Assembly (NCBI GenBank): GCA_040220875.1
Contig: JAVJVX010000005.1
Coordinates: 521,665-585,664, forward strand
Direction: 5' to 3'
DNA from: Alphaproteobacteria bacterium
Lineage (GTDB): Bacteria; Pseudomonadota; Alphaproteobacteria; JAVJVX01
Length of the DNA stretch: 64,000 nucleotides
Below are positions 42,865 through 55,203 of this stretch, in pieces; position 1 is the stretch's first letter; the number at the start of each line of letters is the position of its first letter. The notes under the pieces were generated by a model that was not told the origin of the DNA, made no database searches, and was given only the letters and a program-made list of their open reading frames with translations. A program made the position numbers and the translations under genes.

Positions 42865-43833
42865 ATGAATGTTCGTAACCGGGCGAAAACCCTGGAAGAA
42901 GTCGATTTTGGCAACCATCCCAGCCTCCAACGGGTGTGTCGGGAACAGGTCGGGGTCTGGCCGGCGCACGAGGCAACGCTGGCGACAAGCCTTCGGGACC
43001 GTTCCACCGAGGTCCTGAGGGACTCGGAGATTTTTGCCTCTCTTATTCTGCGGATCGCGGAAGATCATTCGCAGCCGATTCGGAAGATCTGCACCGATTA
43101 TCGCTATTTCTGCGAAGAAATGATCCTCAAGGCCGAACTCTTTTTCCGTCGCAACAAGCGCTATGAACGTTCCACCTTCGAAGAGGCCTATAACGACGTG
43201 TATGCCGATCCCGTCATCATGGAAAAATATATGAACGGGCTTCTGCTATCCGGCCTTTTCTGGATCAATCACGCCAACGCCCTGACTTACTACCGCACAA
43301 AATTTCTGGCGGGCAATGTCGAGGGGTACGACCATCTTGAGGTCGGGCCCGGCCACGGCACGCTGCTCTATTTCGCGGCCACGGATCCGCGCATGGGCTC
43401 GGCGACGGGTTGGGATGTCAGCCCGGGAGCCATCGATGCAACGCGGCGAACTCTGGCAGCAATCGGCGTGGACGAAAAAGTGTCTCTGGTCTGCCAGAAC
43501 CTGTATGACGCGCCGGGCAGCGTTAATCGCTACGACAGCATTGTCGTCAGCGAGGTTCTGGAGCATCTGGAAGATCCCAAGGGGGCTTTGGTGTGCTTGC
43601 ACGACTACCTGAAGCCGGGCGGTCGGATCTACGTAAACATGCCGGCCAACAGTCCGGCACCCGATCATATATTCCTGATCACCGACGCTGAGGAAACGCT
43701 CGGCTTCATGAGGGAGGCCGGCTTCGAAATCGAGCAGAGAGAGTTGTTTCCCATGACCGGCTACAGCCTCGAGCAATGCAGGAAGCACGCACTTACAGTG
43801 AACTGCGCGGCCATTGGGCGGAAAAAGCCCTAA
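42865..43833 (+). CDS. Class I SAM-dependent methyltransferase with an N-terminal extension of about 120 aa
   Basis: Motif I LEVGPGHG and post-I VVSEVLEHLEDP. Its stop overlaps the convergent FkbH-like gene. Confidence 0.8.
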   Translation: MNVRNRAKTLEEVDFGNHPSLQRVCREQVGVWPAHEATLATSLRDRSTEVLRDSEIFASLILRIAEDHSQPIRKICTDYRYFCEEMILKAELFFRRNKRYERSTFEEAYNDVYADPVIMEKYMNGLLLSGLFWINHANALTYYRTKFLAGNVEGYDHLEVGPGHGTLLYFAATDPRMGSATGWDVSPGAIDATRRTLAAIGVDEKVSLVCQNLYDAPGSVNRYDSIVVSEVLEHLEDPKGALVCLHDYLKPGGRIYVNMPANSPAPDHIFLITDAEETLGFMREAGFEIEQRELFPMTGYSLEQCRKHALTVNCAAIGRKKP

Positions 43834-45743
43834 TCGTCTCCTGTCCCTGCCTGTTCGACCTCGAAGGGAAGGTTGTCGCGCGGCGTGAAGCCATCAACCT
43901 CCAGCCGCCAGGTGGTCCGCCCCCCCTCGTCCTCGACGAGATCGAAGCCAAAATTGGCGAACAGATCCTTTACGAGGGAGTTTTTCGGAGTCGGATCATA
44001 ATGGCCGATAATTTCCCCGACCTCCCGCTCCTTCGCCGCCCGGACCAATTGGTGCAGGACCGCATCCTCGACATTGCGCCCAAGCACGCGGCAGCTCATC
44101 AGCCATGTCTCGATATCCCAGGTCTGCCCGACCTGGTTGATGATGACGACCGATATGATGCCGTTATCTCCAAACCGGTCACGCAGGCGGGCCTGAAGCG
44201 TATATGTTTCGGGCGAGCGGGATAGTTCGGCGACTTCCTTTTCCGTATATCGTCTGGTCGTCAGATTGAACTGGTTCGTCTTGTTTATGAGCTGTGTGAT
44301 GCGAGGCAACTGGGCGGCAGTGAACGGGGCGAACCGGATGACCATATCCAGCGATTTCAGGTAGTCCTCGATGCTTCTGGACTTCGACTGAAGCTCGGCC
44401 CGCTTGACATTGTCGCGGTACTGGCGGGCCCTGGCGCGATCTTCCTGCGAGAAGATGACGCTCTCGAAATATCCGGCGCTCAGGACGGTTCTGGGTATCA
44501 AGGCCGGATCTTCCGGCAATTCCGGCACCGCCAGGGCCGGCAAGGCCTCACGGACCTGTTCACGCTCGAACGGGTTGTCATCGACAAAAACGATGGCATC
44601 CAGGCCAATATTGAGGACCTTCGCAATTGCTTCGATATTGGTTGCCTTGTCGGTCCAGTTCGCCTGGAACACCGAGATATGTTCTTCCCGAAGAAGCATA
44701 TCGGGGTGCTCCCGAAACGGCTGCAGGGCGATCTCGTCGTCGTTTTTCGAGCAGATTGCGAGGATGATGCCCCGGCTGTGCAGATCCAGCGCCATTTTCT
44801 GAATATCGAGATGGGCCTCGGCGATGGCATCGCCCTGTCCCACGAGGATACCCTCCAGCCCGTCGTCGCCGACAACGCCGGACCACAGGGTGTTATCCAG
44901 ATCGAGGACGAGACATTTTCTGGACTTGCCGCGGATCGCGGCAATCAGGCGGGAGACGTGATCGACATATAGGGGGACGAGCTTCTGGGAAAAGGGGAGC
45001 TTGTAGTGATTCCACTGAACCGGGTCATGCCAGGTTTCGAGCCCAACGGATGCAGCCAGGCCGGCAACGTTCAGAACGTAATCTCCGCTCTCTCGGGCGA
45101 GATCCTCCAGCCGCCGGTTGAACAGCGCGCTCATGGACAGGTTGGTCCCGGCTACTCGCCTGTCCATACTGCCAAATGCGGAATCGGGAAATGGCGCGAG
45201 GGTCTGGTAGATGACGAAAGCCCCCGAAGCGGCCGCGATCCCCGTGCGGATCGTGCGCAGATAGTCGATCGCTTCCTCGACCGCCGCCTGCTCCTGCTCG
45301 AACGAGCCGAACTCGACATCGCCAAACGGCAGGCCGCGCTTGTCGAGCGCAAGCAGCACGGCATCGGGCCTGGCCGCGTTCACGGTCGAAGCCGGGTTCG
45401 TCGCTTCCTGGATCACCTGATCGTAGTCGGCCTGAACAACCTCGAGGTTCAGACCGAACCGGGCGGCAGCGGCCGGCAGCGCGGGCGCGTAAAGGCAGGT
45501 CGTGCCATTGCCGATGACACCAAGCCGGAATTCCGTCATCGGCGCCAGGTTCGAGCCGTTCTCGCGCGCAATTTCGATGGATTTGGTCAGGCGCGCCAGC
45601 TTGTTCGCGTCAAGCCGGCAGTTCGCCAGCGACATGATCGCGACCCCCGACTCATGCGGCCGTTTATCAAATTCGGCGCAACGGGCGCGGAAATCCTCCG
45701 GGGTCGGCTTCAGCCAGGGAAGGTTTTGAACAGAAAACGCCAT
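43830..45743 (-). CDS. FkbH-like HAD-IIIC phosphatase-family loader with C-terminal GNAT-like domain
   Basis: HAD motif I LVLDLDNTLW in the centre. Domain order is N-terminal domain, then HAD, then an acyl-CoA-N-acyltransferase-like C-terminus, which matches FkbH/OzmB-type glyceryl-ACP-forming enzymes. Confidence 0.7.
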   Translation of the reverse strand: MAFSVQNLPWLKPTPEDFRARCAEFDKRPHESGVAIMSLANCRLDANKLARLTKSIEIARENGSNLAPMTEFRLGVIGNGTTCLYAPALPAAAARFGLNLEVVQADYDQVIQEATNPASTVNAARPDAVLLALDKRGLPFGDVEFGSFEQEQAAVEEAIDYLRTIRTGIAAASGAFVIYQTLAPFPDSAFGSMDRRVAGTNLSMSALFNRRLEDLARESGDYVLNVAGLAASVGLETWHDPVQWNHYKLPFSQKLVPLYVDHVSRLIAAIRGKSRKCLVLDLDNTLWSGVVGDDGLEGILVGQGDAIAEAHLDIQKMALDLHSRGIILAICSKNDDEIALQPFREHPDMLLREEHISVFQANWTDKATNIEAIAKVLNIGLDAIVFVDDNPFEREQVREALPALAVPELPEDPALIPRTVLSAGYFESVIFSQEDRARARQYRDNVKRAELQSKSRSIEDYLKSLDMVIRFAPFTAAQLPRITQLINKTNQFNLTTRRYTEKEVAELSRSPETYTLQARLRDRFGDNGIISVVIINQVGQTWDIETWLMSCRVLGRNVEDAVLHQLVRAAKEREVGEIIGHYDPTPKNSLVKDLFANFGFDLVEDEGGRTTWRLEVDGFTPRDNLPFEVEQAGTGDD

Positions 45744-45784
45744 ATCAGGAAATCTTCATATACGGGACCCGGGAAGGCGCAAAG

Positions 45785-46219
45785 TCAGTCGGGCCCGTCC
45801 AGAAGTTTCGAGCCCGCCGTTCCGCTGGCGACGAGTTTGTCGCCGCACCTGACCTGAAACTTCAACTTGACCGTATGGGTGGCCTCTGACTTGTGCGTGA
45901 TGGTTGCCTCCATCACCGCCTCTTCATCGACATACAAGGGCCGATTAAAATCAATTTTCCAACTGGTTGCCAACCCAAAGTCGCCGGGAAGATACATCCC
46001 CACCAGATTGGACAGCCGCGCGACGGTCAATGCCCCGTACACGACAACATCTTCAAAACCCCTGGCGCGCGCAAATGCGCGATCCATGTGTATGCGGCTG
46101 CGGTCGCCGGAGAGCTCCGCGAACTTTTCCATGTCGTCCCGGGACACCGAGAACGGCACGGTCACGGCCATGTCCTGCTGTATCTGATCCCACGTCAGTA
46201 TATTGGGCCTGACCGTCAA
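45785..46219 (-). CDS. MaoC-like (hot-dog fold) dehydratase
   Basis: 144 aa with hot-dog features. Its start overlaps the ACP gene stop by 4 nt. Confidence 0.75.
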   Translation of the reverse strand: MTVRPNILTWDQIQQDMAVTVPFSVSRDDMEKFAELSGDRSRIHMDRAFARARGFEDVVVYGALTVARLSNLVGMYLPGDFGLATSWKIDFNRPLYVDEEAVMEATITHKSEATHTVKLKFQVRCGDKLVASGTAGSKLLDGPD

Positions 46220-46473
46220 CCCGCCGTCCTTTTCTGGATCACTTTGACGAATTCCCCGACGTTGTTCAGGTTGGCGATTTCCCCTGACGAGAACTGAATG
46301 CCGAACTCTTCCTCGACGGCCACGACGAGACGGATGTTGCTGAGACTGTCCCAGGCCGGCACCTCGGCAGCGGTCATCTCCGGATGCGGCACAATATCGT
46401 CGTCATCGAAGACATCCCTGAAAACAGGCGTCAAGCGCTTGTAAACCTCTTCAGTCTCAATCATTTGAACCAA
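46216..46473 (-). CDS. Acyl/peptidyl carrier protein, DltC-like
   Basis: 85 aa. Phosphopantetheine site WDSLSNIRLVVAVEEEFGIQF, closely resembling the DltC DSL…EEEFGI signature. Confidence 0.8.
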   Translation of the reverse strand: MVQMIETEEVYKRLTPVFRDVFDDDDIVPHPEMTAAEVPAWDSLSNIRLVVAVEEEFGIQFSSGEIANLNNVGEFVKVIQKRTAG

Positions 46474-46524
46474 AACCTTCCTTAACGAAGCGATCGGGGC
46501 GCTCTCAAGGCTCGCCGGGGCGCC

Positions 46525-47676
46525 CTATTTTTCCTGGTTGCTGATAATCAGTGCCGTGGCCTGTGGCAAGAGGCTATCGGCAAGCTCGGCATATCCCGCG
46601 GCGTTCAGATGCACGTGGTCCAGAAACATGCCCGGTTTCAGGGACTCCAGCGCCGGATGATATCCGATATACCGGCCGTCCGCGTGATCTTCGATATGGC
46701 GCCGCAGCACCTCCAAATCCTGCTGGTGCTTCGACACGTCCACAATCTGCCGCAGAACGCCCGGGTTTTCCGTCGCATAAAAGATCAGCGTGGGCTGACG
46801 GGTCGCAGACAGAAACTCCAGCATGTACTGCAGGGCCGCAAGCTGGCGATTATCACCCTCAAGACGGATTGCGCTGTAACGCCTCTTCGCCTTGATCATA
46901 AGAATCGCCCGCTCCGAACGCTCCTCCTTGCGTGTCATCTCCGGGACGCCGCCCTTGAACCAGAGATCGATCTTCGTGCGAAGATTCCGCGTGAAGTTCA
47001 CGGGCTCGCCATCCAGCAGGTGCCACTGCAGGAAATCGGAAACGCGGTGGAGAAACCAGTACCCGGAGACGGTATCGTCAATCACCGAGGACAGGCGGGC
47101 GCCCTTTCCGCCCGTCGTGAGGCGACCGTTCCCCGAGATTTCCATGTCGTTGAGCCAGGGCCGGGTTTCCGCTTCTCCCGCCTCCTCGAAATCGTCCGAG
47201 AAGGAACGCAGGCTCAGATCAAACAGCAGCAGATCCGGCTTGTAGGGCTGAATGATCCGGACGAGGTTTTCCAGATCCTGCGGCAGGGCACCGTTCATGC
47301 CGAGGTTCAGAACCATCAGGTCCCGATCAGGAAAGGACCCCGCCAGCCGCTCCTGAAGTTGCCGCGAAATCACGTGTCTCCGCCAGTCGTCGTCGCCGTG
47401 TGCCTCCATCGACCGGCCATAAACCAGCGAATCCCCGAGGATGATCACCTTGATCCCGTCAAACTCGCGCAACGCCTCGAGCTTTGCGTAGAGCACGCTC
47501 GGCGTTTGAATATCGACGATCCTGAACAGCGTCTGGTTCTGCGAGAACCAGACGCGCACGGCGGCATCGATCACTCCAATGCAGAGCAGGACGAGCACGA
47601 CGACCTTCGCCAGCGCCACCAGATTGTGCAAATGGCCCGGGCGAGCGTTCTCTGTGACTGGCGTGTCCTGTGCCAT
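46525..47676 (-). CDS. Membrane-anchored SGNH/GDSL hydrolase-fold protein (DltD/AlgJ-like acyltransferase)
   Basis: N-terminal TM helix. Block I ILGDSLVYG and block V DHVHLNAAGY. RBS GGACAGGG. Confidence 0.75.
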   Translation of the reverse strand: MAQDTPVTENARPGHLHNLVALAKVVVLVLLCIGVIDAAVRVWFSQNQTLFRIVDIQTPSVLYAKLEALREFDGIKVIILGDSLVYGRSMEAHGDDDWRRHVISRQLQERLAGSFPDRDLMVLNLGMNGALPQDLENLVRIIQPYKPDLLLFDLSLRSFSDDFEEAGEAETRPWLNDMEISGNGRLTTGGKGARLSSVIDDTVSGYWFLHRVSDFLQWHLLDGEPVNFTRNLRTKIDLWFKGGVPEMTRKEERSERAILMIKAKRRYSAIRLEGDNRQLAALQYMLEFLSATRQPTLIFYATENPGVLRQIVDVSKHQQDLEVLRRHIEDHADGRYIGYHPALESLKPGMFLDHVHLNAAGYAELADSLLPQATALIISNQEK

Positions 47677-47691
47677 GCCGACCCTGTCCAG

Positions 47692-47805
47692 CTAGAAGTT
47701 CTGATACACGAAAAATGTCTGGCCCGAATTCATCAGGAGCAGAATTGCGGCTATCTTAAGGGCCAGCCAGAAGCTGCTGATGAGGAGCCCGGTTCTGTTA
47801 TTCAT
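47692..47805 (-). CDS. Unlisted 37-aa hydrophobic peptide (MNNRTGLLISSFWLALKIAAILLLMNSGQTFFVYQNF), DltX-like
   Basis: Its ATG overlaps the MBOAT stop (TGATG). It ends 12 nt before the SGNH start. One predicted TM helix and a C-terminal Tyr-containing tail VYQNF. It is below the ORF-track size cutoff. Confidence 0.45.
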   Translation of the reverse strand: MNNRTGLLISSFWLALKIAAILLLMNSGQTFFVYQNF

Positions 47806-49028
47806 CACCTAAATCCCAGCATTCTGCCGAAAATACCGCCCCACTCGGAGGCCGACGTCAGCCACAGCGTCAAACTCACCGAAACGAACGAATACACCAT
47901 AAGGCGCTTGGCATAGACGGTCGCGACGTTCGGACCCTGCCCGGCCGCCGCCGATGCCTTGAAGATCTTCTTGTATGCCTGGCTCAGGGCGAGAGCGCCG
48001 CCATGAAGGATGCCGAAGACCAGGAAACCGACCGTGGTCCCATGCCACATGGCGATGAGCACCATGGAGAAGAAATACGAGGCAACCACCAGGGCGAACT
48101 GGTACTGGCGCCGGACGTTTTTAAAAACATAAACGTTTATCGGCGTGAAAATGTAATCCTTCACCAGGCTGCTGAGCGACATATGCCAGCGCTCCCAGAA
48201 CTCCTGGATGTTGGTGGAGTGGAACGGCCGATTGAAATTCTCGACCACCCTGAACCCCATCAGCATCGCGAGCCCGATGACAATGTCGCAATATCCACTG
48301 AAATCCAGATAGATCAGAAGCAACTGCGACATCACGCCGAGCCACAGAACCGGTACAGACATGTCCATAGGATTGTCGAATGCCAGGATGCCGAACACGG
48401 ACAGGTTATCGGCAATCACGAATTTCTTGATCATGCCGTTAGCGATACGGTGCAGGGCCGGCATCACCAGATCCGGGTTCCACTGCGGTTGCGTCATCTG
48501 GGTTTCGAAACGCCGATAGCGTTCGATCGGACCGGCCAGTATGAGTGGGAAAAACAGGATGTAGTTGCAGTAACGCAAAAGGCCGGGTTCTTCGATGAAC
48601 TCGACCTCCATAAGGTAACTGATACTCCTGAATACCATGTAGGAGATGCCGATGATCTGGACCGTCACATAGTAAAACGGGTTAACGGACGAAAATAACG
48701 AACCGTCCCGAACCAGAAACAGGAATGCCCACAAGCCAACGACGCTGACGCCAAGGATTGCCGAAGCCCGAGAGGCTTCGGCGCGCAACCGCCACCGTCC
48801 GATGAAATAGGTGAGGACGATGAACGACACCAGAATGCCGACGGTTTCAACGTTAACGAAGAAGGCCGATATGAAATAAATATTGAAGGCCAGGAGAGTA
48901 ATATTCCTGGCCGTTGCCTTGCCCAGCAGGTTCATCGCGATGACGGCCAGGATCGCGAACAGCAGGAATTCCCAGCTGTTGATCGCAAATCCCGACAGGG
49001 AGTCTCCATTAGCGTCAAATACGGGCAT
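47805..49028 (-). CDS. Membrane-bound O-acyltransferase (MBOAT; DltB/AlgI-like)
   Basis: Polytopic 407 aa. Invariant MBOAT His in ERWHMSLS. Confidence 0.85.
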   Translation of the reverse strand: MPVFDANGDSLSGFAINSWEFLLFAILAVIAMNLLGKATARNITLLAFNIYFISAFFVNVETVGILVSFIVLTYFIGRWRLRAEASRASAILGVSVVGLWAFLFLVRDGSLFSSVNPFYYVTVQIIGISYMVFRSISYLMEVEFIEEPGLLRYCNYILFFPLILAGPIERYRRFETQMTQPQWNPDLVMPALHRIANGMIKKFVIADNLSVFGILAFDNPMDMSVPVLWLGVMSQLLLIYLDFSGYCDIVIGLAMLMGFRVVENFNRPFHSTNIQEFWERWHMSLSSLVKDYIFTPINVYVFKNVRRQYQFALVVASYFFSMVLIAMWHGTTVGFLVFGILHGGALALSQAYKKIFKASAAAGQGPNVATVYAKRLMVYSFVSVSLTLWLTSASEWGGIFGRMLGFR

Positions 49029-49138
49029 CAGGGACTCGTTTCCTGCGTATCGGGTATCGGGCGGGAGTGACTGGCACGGACCTGTGTCAGCCGGTTGCCG
49101 GAGCGGCCGGCCAGGCGGGACCAGCGCTGCGGCACCAT

Positions 49139-50404
49139 CTACCGGGCAGCGGGAAGGATTTCAATCTTGTCGATAAAGAGACCACGATTCGGACCCCGAA
49201 AATCATACCCCATGGCAAGCCTGCACCCGCCTGTATCCCCACATCGAAAATCGACAGACCATGTCGCCGGGCTCGATTTCCACAATCTTTCCGTCGTCTT
49301 GCTTTCCGTCGTCTCGAACTCCGCCCCGCGCTCTATGACGGCCGTATCGCTTTTCGCCCAAAACTTCAAATCCCCCTGACTCGCCCGGTAACTATGGATA
49401 TTAAGCCGGTAGAGGCGGTCGGGCGTCGGGTTTATGAACTCCCATTCAAGGCTGAACGTGTCCCTGTGTGTCCCGAGTGAGCGCCCCATCTCGCCGCTGA
49501 TGCCCATCTCCCGTCCATCCGAGGTCACGTCGGCAAACGCGCCGTCAATTTCGCCCAGGACGAGTCCGTCGGGATGCTCCGACAGATCGACCTGCGGGAA
49601 AAGTACCTTCATGTCGTCCCCGCGCCAGAACCCGTAGGTCCTGGCGTTGCGGATGTAGTCCACGGTGTAAACCTGCTTCATACGCTCATTGTTGTTGACG
49701 CGCCGACCACCTTCCCGATTTTCACTGATGTAGCGATCGATGGTCTTCTGGAAAACGACCATGTTTTCGTGAGCCGTCTCGGGATCCTGCTTGATCTCCT
49801 CCCAGGACATCACATGGTCACCCCGCATGAAGACGCCGGCATATGTGACGTCGAACATGTGCCATGCCCCGTCATAGTAAACCTGCGCAACACTGTGAGC
49901 GCCGAAATTCCTGTTGAAGTTGTAGATGTTGAAAACGCCGGCGGGAATGTTTGCGAACTTGAGCATTTCCACGAACATGCGTGTCTTGGCGCCGCACCGG
50001 CCAACCCGGTTGGAGAACCACGCCAGCGGGTCCCGACCGTAATCGCTGGCCCGGTCGTTGCGGATATTCGAGGATACCCATAATGCCAGACGCATGGTTT
50101 TTTCGGCATCCGTTGTGGCGCCATCCAGGATCCGCTCGACATTGGTCGCCATATCGGATGTGAGAAGCTCCGTCCGGAGCCTGGCGATCTGCTCCAGATT
50201 CCGCCTGTTGGCGGCCTGCAGTTCCTGCCTGAGTTCGGCAATCTCGCCCCGCCCGGGCTGCTTATCCCCAGCCCTGACCGACCGCTCGACTTGAGCGCTC
50301 AGGATCTCGTAGCCGGCAAGATACATCAGCGCCGAAGAGATCAGCGTCGCAATGACGAGGATAATGAGGACGCTTCCGATATTTTTGGGGTTCAGGTTAA
50401 ACAT
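49139..50404 (-). CDS. Membrane-anchored transglutaminase-like cysteine-protease-fold protein
   Basis: N-terminal TM helix. Cys-His-Asp candidates RCGAKTRMFVEML, GAHSVAQVY and WHMFDV. Confidence 0.55.
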   Translation of the reverse strand: MFNLNPKNIGSVLIILVIATLISSALMYLAGYEILSAQVERSVRAGDKQPGRGEIAELRQELQAANRRNLEQIARLRTELLTSDMATNVERILDGATTDAEKTMRLALWVSSNIRNDRASDYGRDPLAWFSNRVGRCGAKTRMFVEMLKFANIPAGVFNIYNFNRNFGAHSVAQVYYDGAWHMFDVTYAGVFMRGDHVMSWEEIKQDPETAHENMVVFQKTIDRYISENREGGRRVNNNERMKQVYTVDYIRNARTYGFWRGDDMKVLFPQVDLSEHPDGLVLGEIDGAFADVTSDGREMGISGEMGRSLGTHRDTFSLEWEFINPTPDRLYRLNIHSYRASQGDLKFWAKSDTAVIERGAEFETTESKTTERLWKSSPATWSVDFRCGDTGGCRLAMGYDFRGPNRGLFIDKIEILPAAR

Positions 50405-50430
50405 TCGTTTTTATCTGATCTTTCCCGGAT

Positions 50431-50991
50431 CTATTGAGCGGTGAGCGCGTCCATATCTAGGAGGTTCTTTTCAAGCACGAGGAGGCCCTCGTCACTTGTC
50501 CTGAACAGAAGCGATCCGTAGTACCTGAACGAATCGGGATCGGCCGTATCGTATTCATCGGCGCTGAAGATGGAAACGTAGTCGATCTCGACGCTGGTGA
50601 GGTCAGAGAAATACTCCTCGTTGCAGATATAACGAGTGCCCAGCATCTTCCCCGTGTCCACAAAGGCAGCGACACGGCTTTCGACGTCGCGATCGACCAG
50701 TTGATCCCATGCGGGCTGAACATCGAGGGCAATGTACAGGACCTCACCATCCTTCTCGGGTGTCACATCCCGGAAGTCGATGTGCAGCGCATCGGCGAGT
50801 TCCAGCGGAGCTTCGCACGCGATGCCGGGGGAATTCTTTTTGCCGCCCCCGGCAAGCGCCGCGCCCTGTCCGGCCAGCGACAGGGTCACCATCACCGCCA
50901 GCCCGAGCAGAGCGGTCCGGGATATCTGGAAGGTATTGCGGGCGGCGCAAAGAACGCCGGCGGGCCGAACGGCCTTGTTTGGCTTGTGAAC
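50431..50991 (-). CDS. Small secreted protein of unknown function
   Basis: Signal-like ALLGLAVMVTLSLAGQGAALA. The start is uncertain (GTG near 50991 or ATG near 50892). First gene of the minus-strand operon. Confidence 0.35.
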   Translation of the reverse strand, partial: VHKPNKAVRPAGVLCAARNTFQISRTALLGLAVMVTLSLAGQGAALAGGGKKNSPGIACEAPLELADALHIDFRDVTPEKDGEVLYIALDVQPAWDQLVDRDVESRVAAFVDTGKMLGTRYICNEEYFSDLTSVEIDYVSIFSADEYDTADPDSFRYYGSLLFRTSDEGLLVLEKNLLDMDALTAQ

Positions 50992-51375
50992 CACTTTCAA
51001 ACCTGCTCTATCGCGGCGCCTTTGCGCCTCTTGCGGCCGGGCCGGGTTTTCCGGAGTATAGCGGCCGCGTTCCACCACAATCCGCTTTTGCGGCGACAAT
51101 AGAGGGGAGGCGGTCGACCACGGTTTTGCCGCCACAAGCTATCAAATTACGCGTTGATCCATCAAGTTAGACTTTACCTCCGCATGAGGCGAAACGGCTG
51201 GATTGCCCGACAAAAATCGGGGGAAAGTCGAGAAGGCCCTTACCCCCCCTTGGGACCAGGCGCCTATTCTGGCATACCAGGATGGCCGCGGCGGGAAGCG
51301 GCCACGCGGCCGGCCTTCGGCCCGGCCGGATTGCCGCGATCTGGCTGTCTGGCTGTCTGGTGAGGAGAATTCGGA

Positions 51376-53379
51376 ATGCCATCTCGATTTTTGTGGCGGA
51401 TGAAACAGCGTTTCATCTCCCTCCCCATCCCGCGCACCGCGCTTCTGATTGCAACAGGCCTCGCGGCAATATTTCTCGTCCCCATGTTTTCCGTTTCGGC
51501 GGAATCCTACCGAAACACGCTCTCCTTCATCGATTCCGTCGATCCTTATCAAAAAGAGGGACTTGTCGAGATTTACGGCGGAGAGCTGCGCCTGCCCAAG
51601 GACGGGCCCGTCGGCATAAAATCCGCCCAGTTTCAGATACTCGATTCACACGCCCTCCTGGTCTGGAGCCAGGGCCGCTTTCCGGCCGACGGCGCGACAC
51701 ATCTGGAGCTGAGGTTTGAGCGCCCGGTCCCCGCGCGGCTCCCCTTCAGGGTCGGAATCGCGCTCAGGAACGGAGAGGTGCATACTTTTTATCCGAAGGA
51801 TCAATTCACTTTTCCGGATCCGAGTTCTGTCGGGCCCTATCTTCGCAACATCCCCGACGAGTTGATCGCGGGCCTGGAAAAACAGGGGGAGCCGACCAGC
51901 CTGGAGAAAATCGGGGAAGGCCTTTACCGCGCGCCCCTCGCCGATCTGCGCCTTGATTCCGCCGATCCCGGCACCGGGATCGACTATTTCTTCATCGAGT
52001 GGGTCGGCGCACAAGGCCAGACAGTTTCTATCCGGAATCTCGGCCTTGTGACTCTTTTGGACGAACCCGGACCGGATACGATCGACGTCAAAGGCCGGGT
52101 CATCGGAAATGCCGAGCCGGGAACGCCGGTGCGGATGCTGTCTGAAGCCGGCGAAACGAGATCGTCGGCCTTGGCGGCCGATATGGAATTTACTTTTGCG
52201 GATGTTCCCGCTGACAGCCGGGTTTCAATCTGGCTTCGCGAGGCGGAGACCGATTTCTTTGTCACCCATGGCCGCTGGATCGAGGCGGCGACCGCCCAGG
52301 GCCGGCTGGTTATCGATACCCGCCCCCGGATATCCCTCTCGCAAGAGGTCACGAATCCCGAAAAACCCAAGCCGCCGCCACGCGACCTGTCGCGCCCCAA
52401 TAGCAGCCTGTTCCCGAGAAAGAGCAAGTATTTTGGCCTGAGGGTCCCGCATTCGCGCCAGCTCTATACGGGCATCCCGGGGAAGGTCACGGAATTCCAC
52501 AACGTCACCTTCGCCAATAATTATGGATATTTTGACCGGGACAGGTTTTTCGACAATCCGGACGGCTGTTTCCGGGCCGTCGTGATGGGGCCGAGCACGA
52601 TCACCAACATCATGCACCGGACGACGGAGAAGTTTAATGTTCTGCTCGAGGCGGAGCTGGGCGTCCGACTGCAAAAATGTGCGGAAATCATCGCCGCCGG
52701 CCAGGGCGGCGCGCCACCCTCCAACCACTACCAGCGCATGGAAACCTATGTTCGCGCCTTCAAGCCGGATGTGGTTCTGATCGAGGTGGAGGTGGGGACG
52801 CTGACGTTTCTGCACCCGATCCTTCAGCAGAAGATATTGGGCGTCGATCCGGAGCATCCCCGATGGGGCGCCGTCTATTACGATGAGGGAGGCCGGCTCC
52901 AGTTCCGGCCCAGGGATGTGCGATATCGCCGCCACCTGACGCCCAGGGACATGTCTCCATTGAAGAGCGACGTCCTGCCCAACCAGGCGCTCCTGATACC
53001 GTACGATCGGATGCCGCCGGAAGGCCGGGAAACGTTTGCCATTTTTCGCGATTTTCTGGACAAGCTGAAGCGGGAAAACCCGGATATACGTTTTATCCTG
53101 TTTTCATTCCATGCCCAGATCCGGGCGGCGCAGGACCCCTCGACCGGCCGGCAGCCCCACGCGCTTGAAAACGGCGAGACAACAGAATTGGGATTCGAGA
53201 TTTTCGCCGAGAATGTCCGGCGCTTCTGCGAGGAGAATGATTTCGAGTGCATTGTCCCGCCCCTCCCCTCCGGCATCGAGGACGAGGATCGCTACCTCAC
53301 CTGGCGGTACGACAACCACCTGTCCTACCGGGGTCAGCAATGGCTGTCGCATATGCTGACGGACGCGCTCGCACCCTGA
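51376..53379 (+). CDS. Large exported protein with C-terminal SGNH-like (AlgX/AlgJ-type) domain
   Basis: N-terminal signal/TM. The C-terminal half has a block-I-like VVMGPSTITN (Ser retained, Asp replaced by Pro) and block V DNHLSYRGQQWLSHML. RBS GAGGAG. Confidence 0.5.
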   Translation: MPSRFLWRMKQRFISLPIPRTALLIATGLAAIFLVPMFSVSAESYRNTLSFIDSVDPYQKEGLVEIYGGELRLPKDGPVGIKSAQFQILDSHALLVWSQGRFPADGATHLELRFERPVPARLPFRVGIALRNGEVHTFYPKDQFTFPDPSSVGPYLRNIPDELIAGLEKQGEPTSLEKIGEGLYRAPLADLRLDSADPGTGIDYFFIEWVGAQGQTVSIRNLGLVTLLDEPGPDTIDVKGRVIGNAEPGTPVRMLSEAGETRSSALAADMEFTFADVPADSRVSIWLREAETDFFVTHGRWIEAATAQGRLVIDTRPRISLSQEVTNPEKPKPPPRDLSRPNSSLFPRKSKYFGLRVPHSRQLYTGIPGKVTEFHNVTFANNYGYFDRDRFFDNPDGCFRAVVMGPSTITNIMHRTTEKFNVLLEAELGVRLQKCAEIIAAGQGGAPPSNHYQRMETYVRAFKPDVVLIEVEVGTLTFLHPILQQKILGVDPEHPRWGAVYYDEGGRLQFRPRDVRYRRHLTPRDMSPLKSDVLPNQALLIPYDRMPPEGRETFAIFRDFLDKLKRENPDIRFILFSFHAQIRAAQDPSTGRQPHALENGETTELGFEIFAENVRRFCEENDFECIVPPLPSGIEDEDRYLTWRYDNHLSYRGQQWLSHMLTDALAP

Positions 53380-53428
53380 ACCATTGCAACTCCTGCCCTC
53401 CGGACTTCCCGGATAGAGAGATCTGGCC

Positions 53429-54922
53429 GTGACCAAGAAGGCTCTGTTTATCGCATTCCTGACACTCCTCACGATCGGGGGCGCCTATTTCGCGACCGTA
53501 ACCTGGTGGAGTCCGACCGGCGATCATGACGCAGAGCCGGCGGAAGCGAGCGTCCGGGGGGGGCGCCTCGTGGTGGATCCCGGCACGACGCTCCCCCTGA
53601 CCACCCTCTTCGATATTCCTCAAAGCATTCTCTCGCGGATCGAGACGATCGAGGTCAGGCGCGCCGCCGGAAGAGGCGGTCAGATCATCCAAGACAACGC
53701 GCCGGTCGCACAAAACAGGAAAGCCGTCTCGCTTTCCCGCGAGGACCTCCCCACCGTCAGCGTCCACATGGGAGATGGACATACCCAGATTTTCGCCCTG
53801 CGTTATGCCGCCGGCAACAGCTGGTCGAAATGGCACTCGGGTGCCCTGATCAACAAGGTGATCAGGGACGAGACGGAACGCGTCGACAGAATAAACGCGG
53901 AAATTCTGGAAATTCTGAGAGACGGCGAGGACCGCGATCACCTCGTCCAGGCCCTGCATGCGAAATGCCAGGCGTGGATGCCTCAATATGTCTCATTTCT
54001 GGAAGCCGCCTCGGAAGGCGGTTATGCCATGGTGCCGCTGGAGGCGTTCGAGGACTCCGGCACGGACGGCAATCTCCTCTACATGCGCCATGATATCCAT
54101 GTGCGCGACATCGCCGGCGGGGCCTGCATGATGGTCCTTGAAGGCCGGCGTGGCGTGAGCTCCAGCATGCATCTGCACTGGAATGCGGCGGCGCGGCAGG
54201 ACGCGGCCCGTGATGATTTCCTGCTTCTGAAGAAGCTTGAAGGTTTTGGACATCGCTGGGGCCTGCATCTGAGCCCGGCTGATTCCTATCTGTGGTTCAA
54301 GCACTGCCCCGACTACACGCAGCAGAATGACAGATGCCTGAGACCTTTTGTGGACAGGCTTGTCGGCTCCCGTGATTTCAAGGAGGCCGCCAGGAGCGAG
54401 TACTGGTACGAGCCGTTCCCCGGATACAGGGTTCTCAAGGACGCGGACCGCTTCGCGCCCGGCCTCGTACGTGACCTTGTTACCGGCGGCAGAAACCGCT
54501 TTGCCGACGCCCTCGCCAGCCTGCGCGAGGCCTTTTCGCCGGTCTCGTCCTGGTCGTCGCATGGCGGCATGACCCTGCAAAAACAGGCCCTGCGGATGCG
54601 GCGGGAGAAAGACACGCCAACACAACAGATCGGGGAATTCGTCGGGATGATCGGTCAGGGCCACACATTCCTTGGCCTCGAATGGGCGACAAAACACGGC
54701 GCCGGGATCGAGCCCTATCAGATGATGTCGCGATACGGGCTCGACTATCTGACCGACTCGATCACGACGCGTGTCAGCGGCGCCTGTTTCGAGGCGCGGC
54801 TCCGCGAGATCATGGCCAGGGGCGAGCCCTTCCACGTCCTGGTCCACCCCTATTTGTGGCTCTACGGACTGCCCGGGCAGGACCCGTCAGAACCCTGCGA
54901 GCGTATCGGCGCCACGTATTAG
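53429..54922 (+). CDS. Membrane-anchored hypothetical protein (497 aa)
   Basis: N-terminal TM helix LFIAFLTLLTIGGAYFATV. No confident motif. Probably co-transcribed with the AlgX-like gene. Confidence 0.4.
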   Translation: MTKKALFIAFLTLLTIGGAYFATVTWWSPTGDHDAEPAEASVRGGRLVVDPGTTLPLTTLFDIPQSILSRIETIEVRRAAGRGGQIIQDNAPVAQNRKAVSLSREDLPTVSVHMGDGHTQIFALRYAAGNSWSKWHSGALINKVIRDETERVDRINAEILEILRDGEDRDHLVQALHAKCQAWMPQYVSFLEAASEGGYAMVPLEAFEDSGTDGNLLYMRHDIHVRDIAGGACMMVLEGRRGVSSSMHLHWNAAARQDAARDDFLLLKKLEGFGHRWGLHLSPADSYLWFKHCPDYTQQNDRCLRPFVDRLVGSRDFKEAARSEYWYEPFPGYRVLKDADRFAPGLVRDLVTGGRNRFADALASLREAFSPVSSWSSHGGMTLQKQALRMRREKDTPTQQIGEFVGMIGQGHTFLGLEWATKHGAGIEPYQMMSRYGLDYLTDSITTRVSGACFEARLREIMARGEPFHVLVHPYLWLYGLPGQDPSEPCERIGATY

Positions 54923-55203
54923 GCGCCCGGACAGGAAACCCCTTGGCGATTTCGGTTGCCAAGGGAGAGAGAACGTGCGAGACAGGCGCCGTGCTCGCCG
55001 GGTGTAGGTGACGATCATTCGTCAACGGCGACCATTAACCGAGCAACCTTCCCCGCGTATTGATCGTTGCCTTGGACACCGCGCCCCGAACAGGCGGCGC
55101 ACCAAGCAGGCAGCTGACCTACGCCACGCTCCCTCCCTTAGAGAAAACCCCCGCTTGCGGCCGGCATGAGCCCGGCGCGCAACCAGAAATTGAGAGTATT
55201 CCT

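What the first reader, a model, noticed from the sequence alone, without database searches (positions are those of the whole stretch)
51376..54922. Divergently transcribed AlgX-like SGNH protein with a GPS (not GDS) nucleophile block, plus a second membrane protein next to the acylation operon
The 667-aa exported protein ends with an SGNH block V (DNHLSYRGQQW…). Its block I reads VVMGPSTITN, so the Ser is retained but the usual Asp is Pro. The N-terminal 380 aa have no obvious motifs and may be a carbohydrate-binding module. In alginate acetylation, the MBOAT AlgI works with two SGNH-like proteins, AlgJ and AlgX. Here the operon's GDSL protein plus this divergent AlgX-like protein would recreate that two-SGNH architecture. 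A 240-bp divergent promoter region lies between the two transcription units. It contains a direct repeat ggctgtct x2 just before the RBS.
Basis: partly seen in the sequence, partly recalled or inferred. Interest (0 to 1): 0.5.

Follow-up and report, generated by a model that had tools for sequence, protein, structure and literature searches.

The report
Uncharacterised SGNH partner of MBOAT acylation systems
The 667-residue exported protein is a real but non-canonical SGNH-fold enzyme with sugar-binding-like modules, from an unnamed family that almost always sits beside membrane acyl-export (MBOAT) systems, and here the neighbouring system is an unusual carrier-protein-dependent, Dlt-like pathway in an alphaproteobacterium.

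Summary
ORF 51376-53379(+) encodes a 667-aa exported protein with VVMGPSTITN (402-411) and DNHLSYRGQQW (646-656). ORF 53429-54922(+) follows it.

The 'GPS' is not special. The family motif is G-x-S with a variable middle residue. Block V is D-x-H, not D-x-x-H, and block III is degenerate. AlgJ/AlgX share these three quirks, but this protein is not circularly permuted and does not match the AlgX Pfam model. It is an analogue of AlgX, not a member of that family.

No Pfam or NCBIfam model covers the family. It lies within 10 kb of an MBOAT gene in 15 of 20 loci examined.

The window's operon is Dlt-like: FkbH loader, MaoC, ACP, anchored SGNH, a 37-aa DltX-like microprotein ending FVYQNF, and a DltB-like MBOAT.

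The most likely role is a polymer-facing terminal acyltransferase. An Ape1-like esterase is the main rival.

The 497-aa protein is an orphan with one N-terminal TM segment. The 8-nt repeat is real but has no evidence of function.

The parts
51376..53379 (+). X667: exported or membrane-anchored multidomain SGNH protein from an unnamed family
   Evidence: ORF; homologues; AF2 model pLDDT 89.2, pTM 0.89
51421..51504 (+). N-terminal hydrophobic segment (residues 16-43): signal peptide or membrane anchor
   Evidence: Kyte-Doolittle scan; homologues carry N-terminal TM segments plus linkers
51505..52065 (+). Beta-jelly-roll, CBM-like module (residues ~44-230)
52078..52320 (+). Ig-like / CarboxypepD_reg-like beta-sandwich (residues ~235-315)
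   Evidence: PDB profile hits to Lap/Bap Ig repeats; PF13620 in 9 of 49 family members
52456..53376 (+). Non-canonical SGNH domain (residues ~361-667), including the family-invariant DRDRFFDNPD loop (387-396)
52594..52596 (+). Ser407 codon: predicted nucleophile in G405-P406-S407
   Evidence: Ser in 44 of 49 and Cys in 4 of 49 family members; aligns with the Ser of GDS in the GDSL383 family
53311..53319 (+). Asp646-Asn647-His648: block V with D-x-H spacing
   Evidence: D in 47 of 49, H in 49 of 49; aligned to DGlHYSPAG of GDSL-like protein 7bxd with a one-residue gap
53429..54922 (+). Y497: orphan protein with one N-terminal TM segment, 49 bp downstream of X667, probably co-transcribed
   Evidence: ORF; found only in the same species; no Pfam, NCBIfam or PDB match; unrelated to the Z family; GC3 0.76
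51340..51360 (+). Tandem 8-nt repeat (TCTGGCTG x2.6) just upstream of the GAGGAG ribosome-binding site of X667
   Evidence: function untested
50431..51000 (-). Small exported protein ('fam6'); the listed ORF runs to 51135 but the true start is probably near 50994-51000. Recurrent neighbour of X-family genes
49139..50404 (-). Membrane-anchored transglutaminase-like protein. Present in the operon only in this window
   Evidence: PF01841 E=1.8e-13; no counterpart in other loci
47805..49028 (-). MBOAT, DltB-like. It lacks a C-terminal FxYxxF motif
   Evidence: PF03062 E=4e-24; TIGR04091 197 bits, below the 375-bit cut-off; C-terminus ...GRMLGFR
47692..47805 (-). 37-aa DltX-like microprotein MNNRTGLLISSFWLALKIAAILLLMNSGQTFFVYQNF. 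Its start overlaps the MBOAT stop codon (TGATG)
   Evidence: conserved in L003, L006-L010 and L015; motif defined in PMC12148441
46525..47676 (-). Membrane-anchored GDSL/SGNH protein (GDSL383): positional analogue of DltD/PatB
   Evidence: Lipase_GDSL_2 and Lipase_GDSL matches; TM segment 13-46
46216..46473 (-). Acyl carrier protein (DSL phosphopantetheine attachment site)
   Evidence: PF00550; sequence
45785..46219 (-). MaoC-like dehydratase
   Evidence: PF01575 E=6e-14
43830..45743 (-). FkbH-domain / HAD-IIIC protein: presumed loader of the carrier protein
   Evidence: TIGR01686 316.7 bits against a 146.65-bit cut-off; PF21211
42865..43833 (+). SAM-dependent methyltransferase, homologous to the one beside the MBOAT in the Bradyrhizobium loci

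Best explanation
X667 is an extracytoplasmic enzyme, either anchored in the inner membrane or secreted. It has three modules: a CBM-like beta-jelly-roll, an Ig-like spacer, and a non-canonical SGNH domain with a predicted Ser407-His648-Asp646 triad. It belongs to an unnamed family that is a dedicated partner of MBOAT/SGNH envelope-polymer acylation systems.

In this window the partner system is Dlt-like. The inferred route is as follows. An FkbH-type enzyme loads a small acyl group onto an ACP, probably one derived from glycerate. A MaoC dehydratase and a methyltransferase may modify it. The DltB-like MBOAT passes the acyl group to the C-terminal Tyr of a 37-aa DltX-like microprotein (FVYQNF). 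The anchored SGNH protein GDSL383 then takes it.

I propose that X667 performs the last, polymer-proximal step. It would accept the acyl group on Ser407 and transfer it to a hydroxyl of a polysaccharide held by its beta-sandwich modules. That is the role AlgX plays relative to AlgI/AlgJ, reached by a different, non-permuted SGNH lineage.

Shown here: the fold, the conserved triad residues, the domain architecture, the extracytoplasmic topology and the conserved gene linkage. Inferred: the acyl relay, the direction of the reaction (transfer rather than hydrolysis), the acyl group and the target polymer.

For: Catalytic residues across 49 diverse members: G405 in 47, S407 in 44 plus Cys in 4, D646 in 47, H648 in 49. 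Ser/Cys exchange is typical of a catalytic nucleophile. Profile-profile alignment places G-x-S on GDS and the His on the DxxH His of the operon's GDSL family.

D-x-H spacing, a non-Asp block I and a degenerate block III are the same departures from the canon reported for the acetyltransferases AlgJ/AlgX (PMC4148444).

Linkage: an MBOAT lies within 10 kb in 15 of 20 loci, from Bradyrhizobium, unclassified proteobacterial, Enterobacteriaceae-labelled and metagenomic contigs. This holds across three donor types: FkbH/ACP, AMP-binding/carrier, and MBOATs with a fused FxYxxF motif plus a carbamoyltransferase. Several loci also carry polysaccharide genes: GT4, Wzm/Wzt, Wzy_C, GT2.

Dlt-like context: ACP, DltB-like MBOAT, a microprotein ending FVYQNF, and an anchored SGNH. 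The mechanism precedent is in PMC12148441.
Against: In the Dlt and PatAB systems, one MBOAT plus one SGNH suffices for transfer. GDSL383 could therefore be the terminal transferase and X667 something else.

The block II Gly is mostly retained (G442 in 34 of 49). PatB and OatA replace this residue, which is thought to favour transfer over hydrolysis.

No expression or biochemical data exist. One family member (L016) has no MBOAT within 10 kb.
Confidence: 0.45

Rival explanations
1. Ape1-like editing esterase. X667 uses its CBM-like modules to bind the acylated polymer and hydrolyses the ester that the MBOAT/DltX-like/GDSL383 machinery installs. It would thereby tune the level of modification, as Ape1 does for PatA/PatB and DltE does in some Dlt systems.
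Against: Unlike Ape1 and CE3 esterases, the family lacks canonical GDS(L), GxND and DxxH motifs. It instead shares D-x-H and loss of block III with the transferases AlgJ/AlgX. No activity data exist.
Confidence: 0.3
2. Non-catalytic or scaffold role. X667 binds the polymer, or organises the periplasmic complex together with the small fam6 protein, and the SGNH domain contributes little or no turnover.
For: Block III is degenerate and the oxyanion hole cannot be assigned. The window protein lacks C584, which is conserved in 37 of 49 members. The nearest structural neighbour, CgnD, is a very slow enzyme with a poorly positioned Ser.
Against: Ser/Cys407, Asp646 and His648 are conserved in 47-49 of 49 members at 16-33% overall identity. 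That argues for retained catalysis.
Confidence: 0.08
3. Unrelated SGNH lipase or esterase that merely happens to neighbour the acylation operon, with independent regulation.
For: It is transcribed divergently. No promoter or shared regulator was identified. L016 shows a family member without an MBOAT nearby.
Against: Linkage to MBOAT/SGNH pairs persists at about 30% protein identity, across phyla and across three different donor chemistries, in 15 of 20 loci.
Confidence: 0.07
4. A true AlgX orthologue acting in alginate-type acetylation.
For: D-x-H motif; SGNH plus a carbohydrate-binding-like module; an MBOAT and a second SGNH nearby.
Confidence: 0.02

Closest known systems
AlgX (with AlgI/AlgJ/AlgF) of Pseudomonas alginate O-acetylation
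   Same: A periplasmic SGNH-type domain joined to a carbohydrate-binding-like module. It works beside an MBOAT and a second, membrane-anchored SGNH protein. Block V is D-x-H, block I lacks Asp, and the block III Asn is missing (PMC4148444).
   Different: AlgX/AlgJ are circularly permuted (Asp-x-His comes before Ser), while X667 has the canonical order. X667 has no PF16822 match. The domain order is reversed: CBM-like at the N-terminus and SGNH at the C-terminus. The donor system is ACP plus a DltX-like microprotein, not an AlgI with a fused motif. No alginate genes are present.
Ape1 (O-acetylpeptidoglycan esterase) of the PatA/PatB cluster
   Different: [quoted passage not shown] X667 has G-x-S, D-x-H, a degenerate block III, a different beta-sandwich and an extra Ig-like domain. 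Its activity is unknown.
DltD / PatB (SGNH transferases of MBOAT-SGNH pathways)
   Different: The positional DltD/PatB equivalent here is GDSL383, which sits next to the microprotein and the MBOAT. X667 is an additional, larger protein with binding modules and D-x-H spacing.
CE2 carbohydrate esterases (e.g. Est2A 3u37, CjCE2B 2w9x)
   Same: Two-module architecture: an N-terminal beta-jelly-roll and a C-terminal SGNH domain.
   Different: CE2 enzymes are secreted plant-cell-wall esterases with no link to MBOAT systems. Sequence identity is about 8-17%.

Membership tests
SGNH/GDSL hydrolase superfamily | Alpha/beta/alpha flavodoxin-like SGNH fold | tested here: met
SGNH/GDSL hydrolase superfamily | Block I nucleophile Ser at the end of beta1 (GDS) | tested here: met
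   G405-P406-S407 directly after strand 399-405. Ser in 44 of 49 plus Cys in 4 of 49. The middle residue is variable and Asp is not among its six commonest residues. Aligns to GDS of the GDSL383 family
SGNH/GDSL hydrolase superfamily | Block V D-x-x-H | tested here: inconclusive
   Asp646 (47 of 49) and His648 (49 of 49) are present but with D-x-H spacing. There is a one-residue gap against DGlH of 7bxd. Triad geometry was not measurable
SGNH/GDSL hydrolase superfamily | Block II Gly and block III Asn (oxyanion hole) | tested here: not met
   G442 occurs in 34 of 49 members. Position 471 is Asn in only 16 of 49 and is Val in X667
SGNH/GDSL hydrolase superfamily | Pfam Lipase_GDSL_2 (PF13472) above the gathering score | tested here: not met
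   14.9 bits against a 32.9-bit cut-off, C-terminal part only; 2 of 49 relatives match at E<=0.01
AlgX/AlgJ family (PF16822) | Match to the ALGX SGNH-like domain model | tested here: not met
   No hit for X667 at E<=1; 1 of 49 relatives at E=9.8e-4
AlgX/AlgJ family (PF16822) | Circularly permuted order of catalytic residues (Asp-x-His before Ser) | tested here: not met
   Ser407 precedes Asp646-x-His648; the definition comes from PMC4148444
AlgX/AlgJ family (PF16822) | D-x-H block V, non-GDS block I, block III absent | tested here: met
AlgX/AlgJ family (PF16822) | Alginate biosynthesis operon context (established knowledge: algD-alg8-alg44-algK-algE-algG-algX-algL-algI-algJ-algF-algA) | tested here: not met
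   The genes scanned from 31.7 to 56.6 kb are an FkbH/ACP/MBOAT cluster flanked by a P-type ATPase and a DEAD-box helicase
Ape1-type O-acetyl esterases | Typical SGNH hydrolase fold with an appended CBM, encoded beside an MBOAT plus SGNH transferase | tested here: inconclusive
   Context and general architecture match. The sequence motifs are non-canonical. Esterase activity cannot be tested here
Dlt-type carrier-dependent MBOAT pathway (neighbouring operon) | Carrier protein + DltB-like MBOAT + microprotein ending in FxYxxF + membrane-anchored SGNH | tested here: met
   PF00550 ACP; TIGR04091 E=5.8e-58; 37-aa ORF ending FVYQNF; GDSL383 with TM segment 13-46. The set is conserved in L003, L006-L010 and L015
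Dlt-type carrier-dependent MBOAT pathway (neighbouring operon) | DltA adenylation enzyme loading D-alanine; DltB equivalog score | tested here: not met
   The loader is an FkbH-domain protein (TIGR01686 316.7 bits), not an AMP-binding enzyme. The MBOAT scores 197 bits against a 375-bit cut-off

The most novel reading that the evidence does not exclude
The 12-kb island (42865-54922) may encode an undescribed proteobacterial Dlt-like pathway. It would export a non-amino-acyl, glycerate-derived group: FkbH-loaded, then dehydrated and/or methylated. The route would be ACP, then MBOAT, then the Tyr of a DltX-like microprotein, then the anchored SGNH. X667 would belong to a new family of polymer-targeting terminal SGNH acyltransferases that deposit this group on a surface polysaccharide. 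Elsewhere that family is fused or paired with an ~800-aa 'Z' domain of unknown function. The outcome would be a new chemical modification of the Gram-negative envelope and a new class of enzymes installing it.
Probability: 0.3. Interest if true: 0.8.

Novelty: new variant of a known kind. Interest (0 to 1): 0.6.

Why it matters
MBOAT-SGNH systems acylate peptidoglycan, teichoic acids, alginate and cellulose, and they affect virulence, antibiotic resistance and symbiosis. A recent mechanistic paper states that MBOAT/SGNH pathways other than Dlt lack a carrier protein and a DltX-like microprotein (PMC12148441). This locus and its relatives in Bradyrhizobium and other bacteria have both. They use an FkbH loader (or an AMP-binding loader in L015) and carry an extra, unannotated SGNH protein family with polymer-binding modules.

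Two things follow. First, the loci give testable candidates for an unknown envelope modification in cultured nitrogen-fixing symbionts. Second, the X family shares the AlgJ/AlgX active-site peculiarities without the circular permutation, which makes it a natural experiment on what turns an SGNH fold into a transferase rather than an esterase.

Tried and rejected
- The word-index homology searches returned almost nothing: 3 hits for X667, 1 for Y497, and nothing new when re-queried with a 9-sequence profile. Only the exhaustive profile scan revealed the family.
- The first AF2 run, with a 3-sequence alignment, was poor (pLDDT 56.6) and was discarded in favour of the 49-sequence run.
- The afdb50 fold library was unavailable.
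- Y497 gave nothing in Pfam or NCBIfam, nothing in PDB sequence searches, and nothing by BLASTP against all ORFs of the fetched loci.
- I tested whether Y497 is a diverged version of the ~900-aa Z protein that occupies its position in other loci. BLASTP, hmmsearch and hhalign with 8- and 23-sequence profiles found only an insignificant SSHGG/TSHGG patch (probability <1%). Rejected.
- I first read the ~900-aa downstream proteins as X paralogues, based on BLAST clustering. Pairwise comparison showed that they share only the Ig-like module. Corrected.
- The Z profile has no PDB sequence match. Seven long relatives have no Pfam domains.
- The promoter scan of the intergenic region found nothing.
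- Literature searches for FkbH with MBOAT or DltB, and for Bradyrhizobium with MBOAT, found no description of this system.
Full report
**1. Observation**

The window contains ORF 51376-53379(+) of 667 aa and ORF 53429-54922(+) of 497 aa. On the opposite strand lies this gene string:
- an FkbH-domain protein (43830-45743)
- a MaoC dehydratase (45785-46219)
- an ACP (46216-46473)
- a GDSL/SGNH protein of 383 aa (46525-47676)
- an MBOAT (47805-49028)
- a transglutaminase-like protein (49139-50404)
- a small exported protein (50431-~51000)

VVMGPSTITN is residues 402-411 and DNHLSYRGQQW is residues 646-656. The tandem GGCTGTCT x2 lies at 51343-51358, just before a GAGGAG ribosome-binding site.

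Two details need correcting. Block V is D-x-H rather than D-x-x-H. The 240-bp intergenic figure depends on an upstream start codon that is probably wrong: alignment with ~146-aa homologues and the position of the signal peptide suggest a start near 50994-51000.

**2. What X667 is**

Pfam gives only a sub-threshold Lipase_GDSL_2 match at the C-terminus (14.9 bits). NCBIfam gives nothing.

The word-index search found just three relatives. An exhaustive profile scan of 1.84 billion representatives found 829 proteins at E<=1e-3 and 85 at E<=1e-30. The public copies of this protein are annotated as hypothetical proteins in uncultured Alphaproteobacteria MAGs.

With a 49-sequence alignment, AlphaFold gives a confident model (pLDDT 89.2, pTM 0.89). 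Its parts are:
- an N-terminal hydrophobic helix (residues 16-43)
- a beta-jelly-roll (~44-230)
- an Ig-like sandwich (~235-315)
- a low-confidence Pro-rich linker
- an alpha/beta domain (~361-667)

**3. Active site**

Counts across 49 members that are 16-33% identical to X667 (column counts):

| Position | Conservation (of 49) |
|---|---|
| G405 | 47 |
| S407 | 44, plus Cys in 4 |
| D646 | 47 |
| H648 | 49 |
| 406 | variable: S19, G11, E6, A5, H3, P2; Asp not among its six commonest residues |
| 442 (block II Gly) | 34 |
| 471 (block III Asn) | 16 |

A family-specific loop, D387-R-D-R-F-F-D-N-P-D, precedes beta1, and D387 is invariant.

Profile-profile alignment with the operon's own GDSL383 family (E=1.2e-4, 259 columns) superposes G-x-S on GDS and His648 on the DxxH His. 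A PDB profile hit aligns DG-HYSPrG with DGlHYSPAG of a GDSL-like protein, leaving a one-residue gap. I could not measure triad distances because the model coordinates are not exposed.

**4. Relation to AlgX**

**5. Genomic linkage**

I examined 20 loci that encode an X-type SGNH domain: the window, the P0002 contig and L001-L018. An MBOAT lies within 10 kb in 15 of them. Four of the remaining five are contigs cut close to the gene (L002, L004, L011, L017). Only L016 has full flanks and no MBOAT.

The partner systems come in three flavours:
(a) FkbH-MaoC-ACP-SGNH-microprotein-MBOAT plus a methyltransferase. This type is found in the window, five Bradyrhizobium loci (L003, L006, L008-L010) and one proteobacterial MAG (L007).
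(b) AMP-binding enzyme, 82-aa carrier, MBOAT, 37-aa microprotein and SGNH (L015).
(c) An MBOAT with a fused C-terminal FIYFDF motif, a GDSL protein and a carbamoyltransferase, with SxtJ in some loci and DUF5989 in most. This type is found in L001, L005, L012 and L018, and in part in the P0002 contig.

Polysaccharide genes occur nearby in several loci: GT4, Wzm/Wzt, Wzy_C and GT2. The divergent arrangement seen in the window recurs in L003, L006-L009 and L015.

**6. The neighbouring operon is Dlt-like**

Between the MBOAT and GDSL383 lies an unlisted 37-codon ORF (47692-47805, minus strand). Its ATG overlaps the MBOAT stop codon (TGATG). It encodes MNNRTGLLISSFWLALKIAAILLLMNSGQTFFVYQNF. That is a single TM helix ending in the FxYxxF 'acyl-shuttle' motif described for DltX and for the C-termini of PatA/AlgI-type MBOATs (PMC12148441).

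The window's MBOAT lacks that motif (it ends ...GRMLGFR) and is DltB-like (TIGR04091 E=5.8e-58, below the equivalog cut-off). The microprotein is conserved, ending in ..F[VAI]YQNF, in L003, L006-L010 and L015.

Together with the ACP (DSL site) and the anchored SGNH, this reproduces the DltC/DltB/DltX/DltD logic. The difference is that an FkbH-domain loader stands in place of DltA. From established knowledge of FkbH enzymes (glyceryl-ACP formation from 1,3-bisphosphoglycerate), the donor is probably a C3 glycerate-derived unit, perhaps dehydrated by MaoC and methylated. This is inference only.

The cited paper states that non-Dlt MBOAT/SGNH pathways lack a carrier protein and a DltX-like microprotein. 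I found no paper linking FkbH with DltB or MBOAT systems.

**7. Other partners**

In most loci the X gene is followed by a ~900-aa 'Z' protein. Z has no Pfam or PDB match apart from a C-terminal CarboxypepD_reg-like module.

X and Z occur fused in both orders. P0007 is X-Z (hhalign E=1e-126). About 25 of the 152 listed representatives match the Z profile over much or all of its length as well as the X profile. P0075 is one example, with Z at the N-terminus and the X-type region after it.

The window has no Z. Y497 sits in its place. Y497 has one N-terminal TM segment and coding-like GC3 (0.76). It lies 49 bp after X667 with no terminator between them. It has no detectable relative outside its own species and no similarity to Z. 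Its function is unknown.

The small exported 'fam6' protein (window 50431-~51000) is a recurrent neighbour of X genes.

**8. Mechanism**

*Best-supported reading (confidence about 0.45).* X667 is the polymer-facing SGNH of the system. It would take the acyl group from acyl-Tyr or from GDSL383 onto Ser407 and deliver it to a polysaccharide bound by its beta-sandwich modules. This role is analogous to that of AlgX.

The support is the conserved triad with Ser/Cys exchange, the AlgJ/AlgX-like motif deviations, the binding modules joined by a flexible linker (with an additional long N-terminal linker after the membrane anchor in many homologues), and the tight linkage to three kinds of MBOAT systems.

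*Main rival (about 0.3).* X667 is an Ape1-like editing esterase. The structural neighbours are mostly carbohydrate esterases. Ape1 is an SGNH-plus-CBM protein in the PatAB cluster. The block II Gly is largely retained. One SGNH already sits beside the MBOAT.

Sequence and structure alone cannot separate transfer from hydrolysis.

*Minor rivals.* A scaffold or binding role, a chance neighbour, or a true AlgX orthologue. The last fails the membership tests.

**9. Verdict**

The finding is real and its central idea holds: a second SGNH protein is functionally tied to the acylation operon. The label 'AlgX-like' should be replaced by 'member of an uncharacterised SGNH family analogous to AlgX/Ape1'. 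The GPS motif is unremarkable within that family. The direct repeat has no supporting evidence of function.

The more striking result lies next door: a Dlt-type, carrier- and microprotein-dependent MBOAT pathway with an FkbH loader in Proteobacteria.

Novelty: new variant of a known kind. Interest: 0.6.

Noticed in passing
window 47692-47805 (-): An unlisted 37-aa ORF between the MBOAT and GDSL383 encodes a single-TM microprotein ending in FVYQNF, the DltX-type FxYxxF acyl-shuttle motif. Its ATG overlaps the MBOAT stop codon (TGATG). It is conserved in L003, L006-L010 and L015.
   Followed up: yes
window 42865-47676 (methyltransferase, FkbH, MaoC, ACP, GDSL383): The carrier protein appears to be loaded by an FkbH-domain enzyme rather than a DltA-type adenylase, with a MaoC dehydratase and a SAM methyltransferase alongside. 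This suggests a glycerate-derived acyl donor for an MBOAT pathway. No literature describing this combination was found.
   Followed up: partly
L001 3439-3633; L005 2417-2599(-); L012 8179-8328; L018 5933-6082: DUF5989 microproteins lie next to a carbamoyltransferase, with an SxtJ gene alongside in L001. Those translated here (L001, L005, L012) end in PF[VI]YT[IL]F, which also fits FxYxxF. These may form a second Tyr-shuttle, possibly for carbamoyl groups, in the same loci as MBOATs that end in FIYFDF.
   Followed up: no
L003 11812-14586, L006 11812-14595, L013 4413-7025 and others; P0007, P0075: A ~900-aa 'Z' protein family has many invariant residues (e.g. LPYPF..SF.SD.D, WHRGN.DH.H.W, TSHGG) and no Pfam or PDB match apart from a C-terminal CarboxypepD_reg-like module. 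It follows X genes and occurs fused to X-type SGNH domains in both orders. It is absent from the window.
   Followed up: partly
window 42865-54922: The cluster has lower G+C (0.588) than its flanks (0.647 upstream, 0.628 downstream). The flanks hold unrelated genes (a P-type ATPase and a DEAD-box helicase). This is consistent with a horizontally acquired island.
   Followed up: partly
window 49139-50404 (-): A membrane-anchored transglutaminase-like (PF01841) protein sits inside the operon between the MBOAT and the fam6 gene. It has no counterpart in the related loci, where a methyltransferase occupies that position.
   Followed up: no
window 50431-51135 (-): The longest ORF for the small exported fam6 protein probably over-extends its N-terminus by about 45 codons. 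Its hydrophobic signal segment is at residues 71-95 and its homologues are ~146 aa. Fam6 proteins accompany X genes in L003, L006, L007, L009, L010 and L015.
   Followed up: partly
L007 5524-6549(-), L010 17207-18220(+): Two of the FkbH-type loci carry an extra KAS III-like gene (PF08545) and another conserved ~250-aa gene inside the cluster. This hints that the ACP-bound acyl group is elaborated further in some lineages.
   Followed up: no
L016 10001-14002: One Z-SGNH fusion (P0089) has no MBOAT within 10 kb. It lies near squalene-hopene cyclase, a radical-SAM gene and BamA. It is the only examined locus that has full 10-kb flanks and no MBOAT gene.
   Followed up: no
window 54940-54965: An 8-bp GC-rich hairpin (CCCTTGGC...GCCAAGGG) lies 18 nt after the Y497 stop codon, without a T-tract. 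It may mark the end of the X667-Y497 transcription unit.
   Followed up: no
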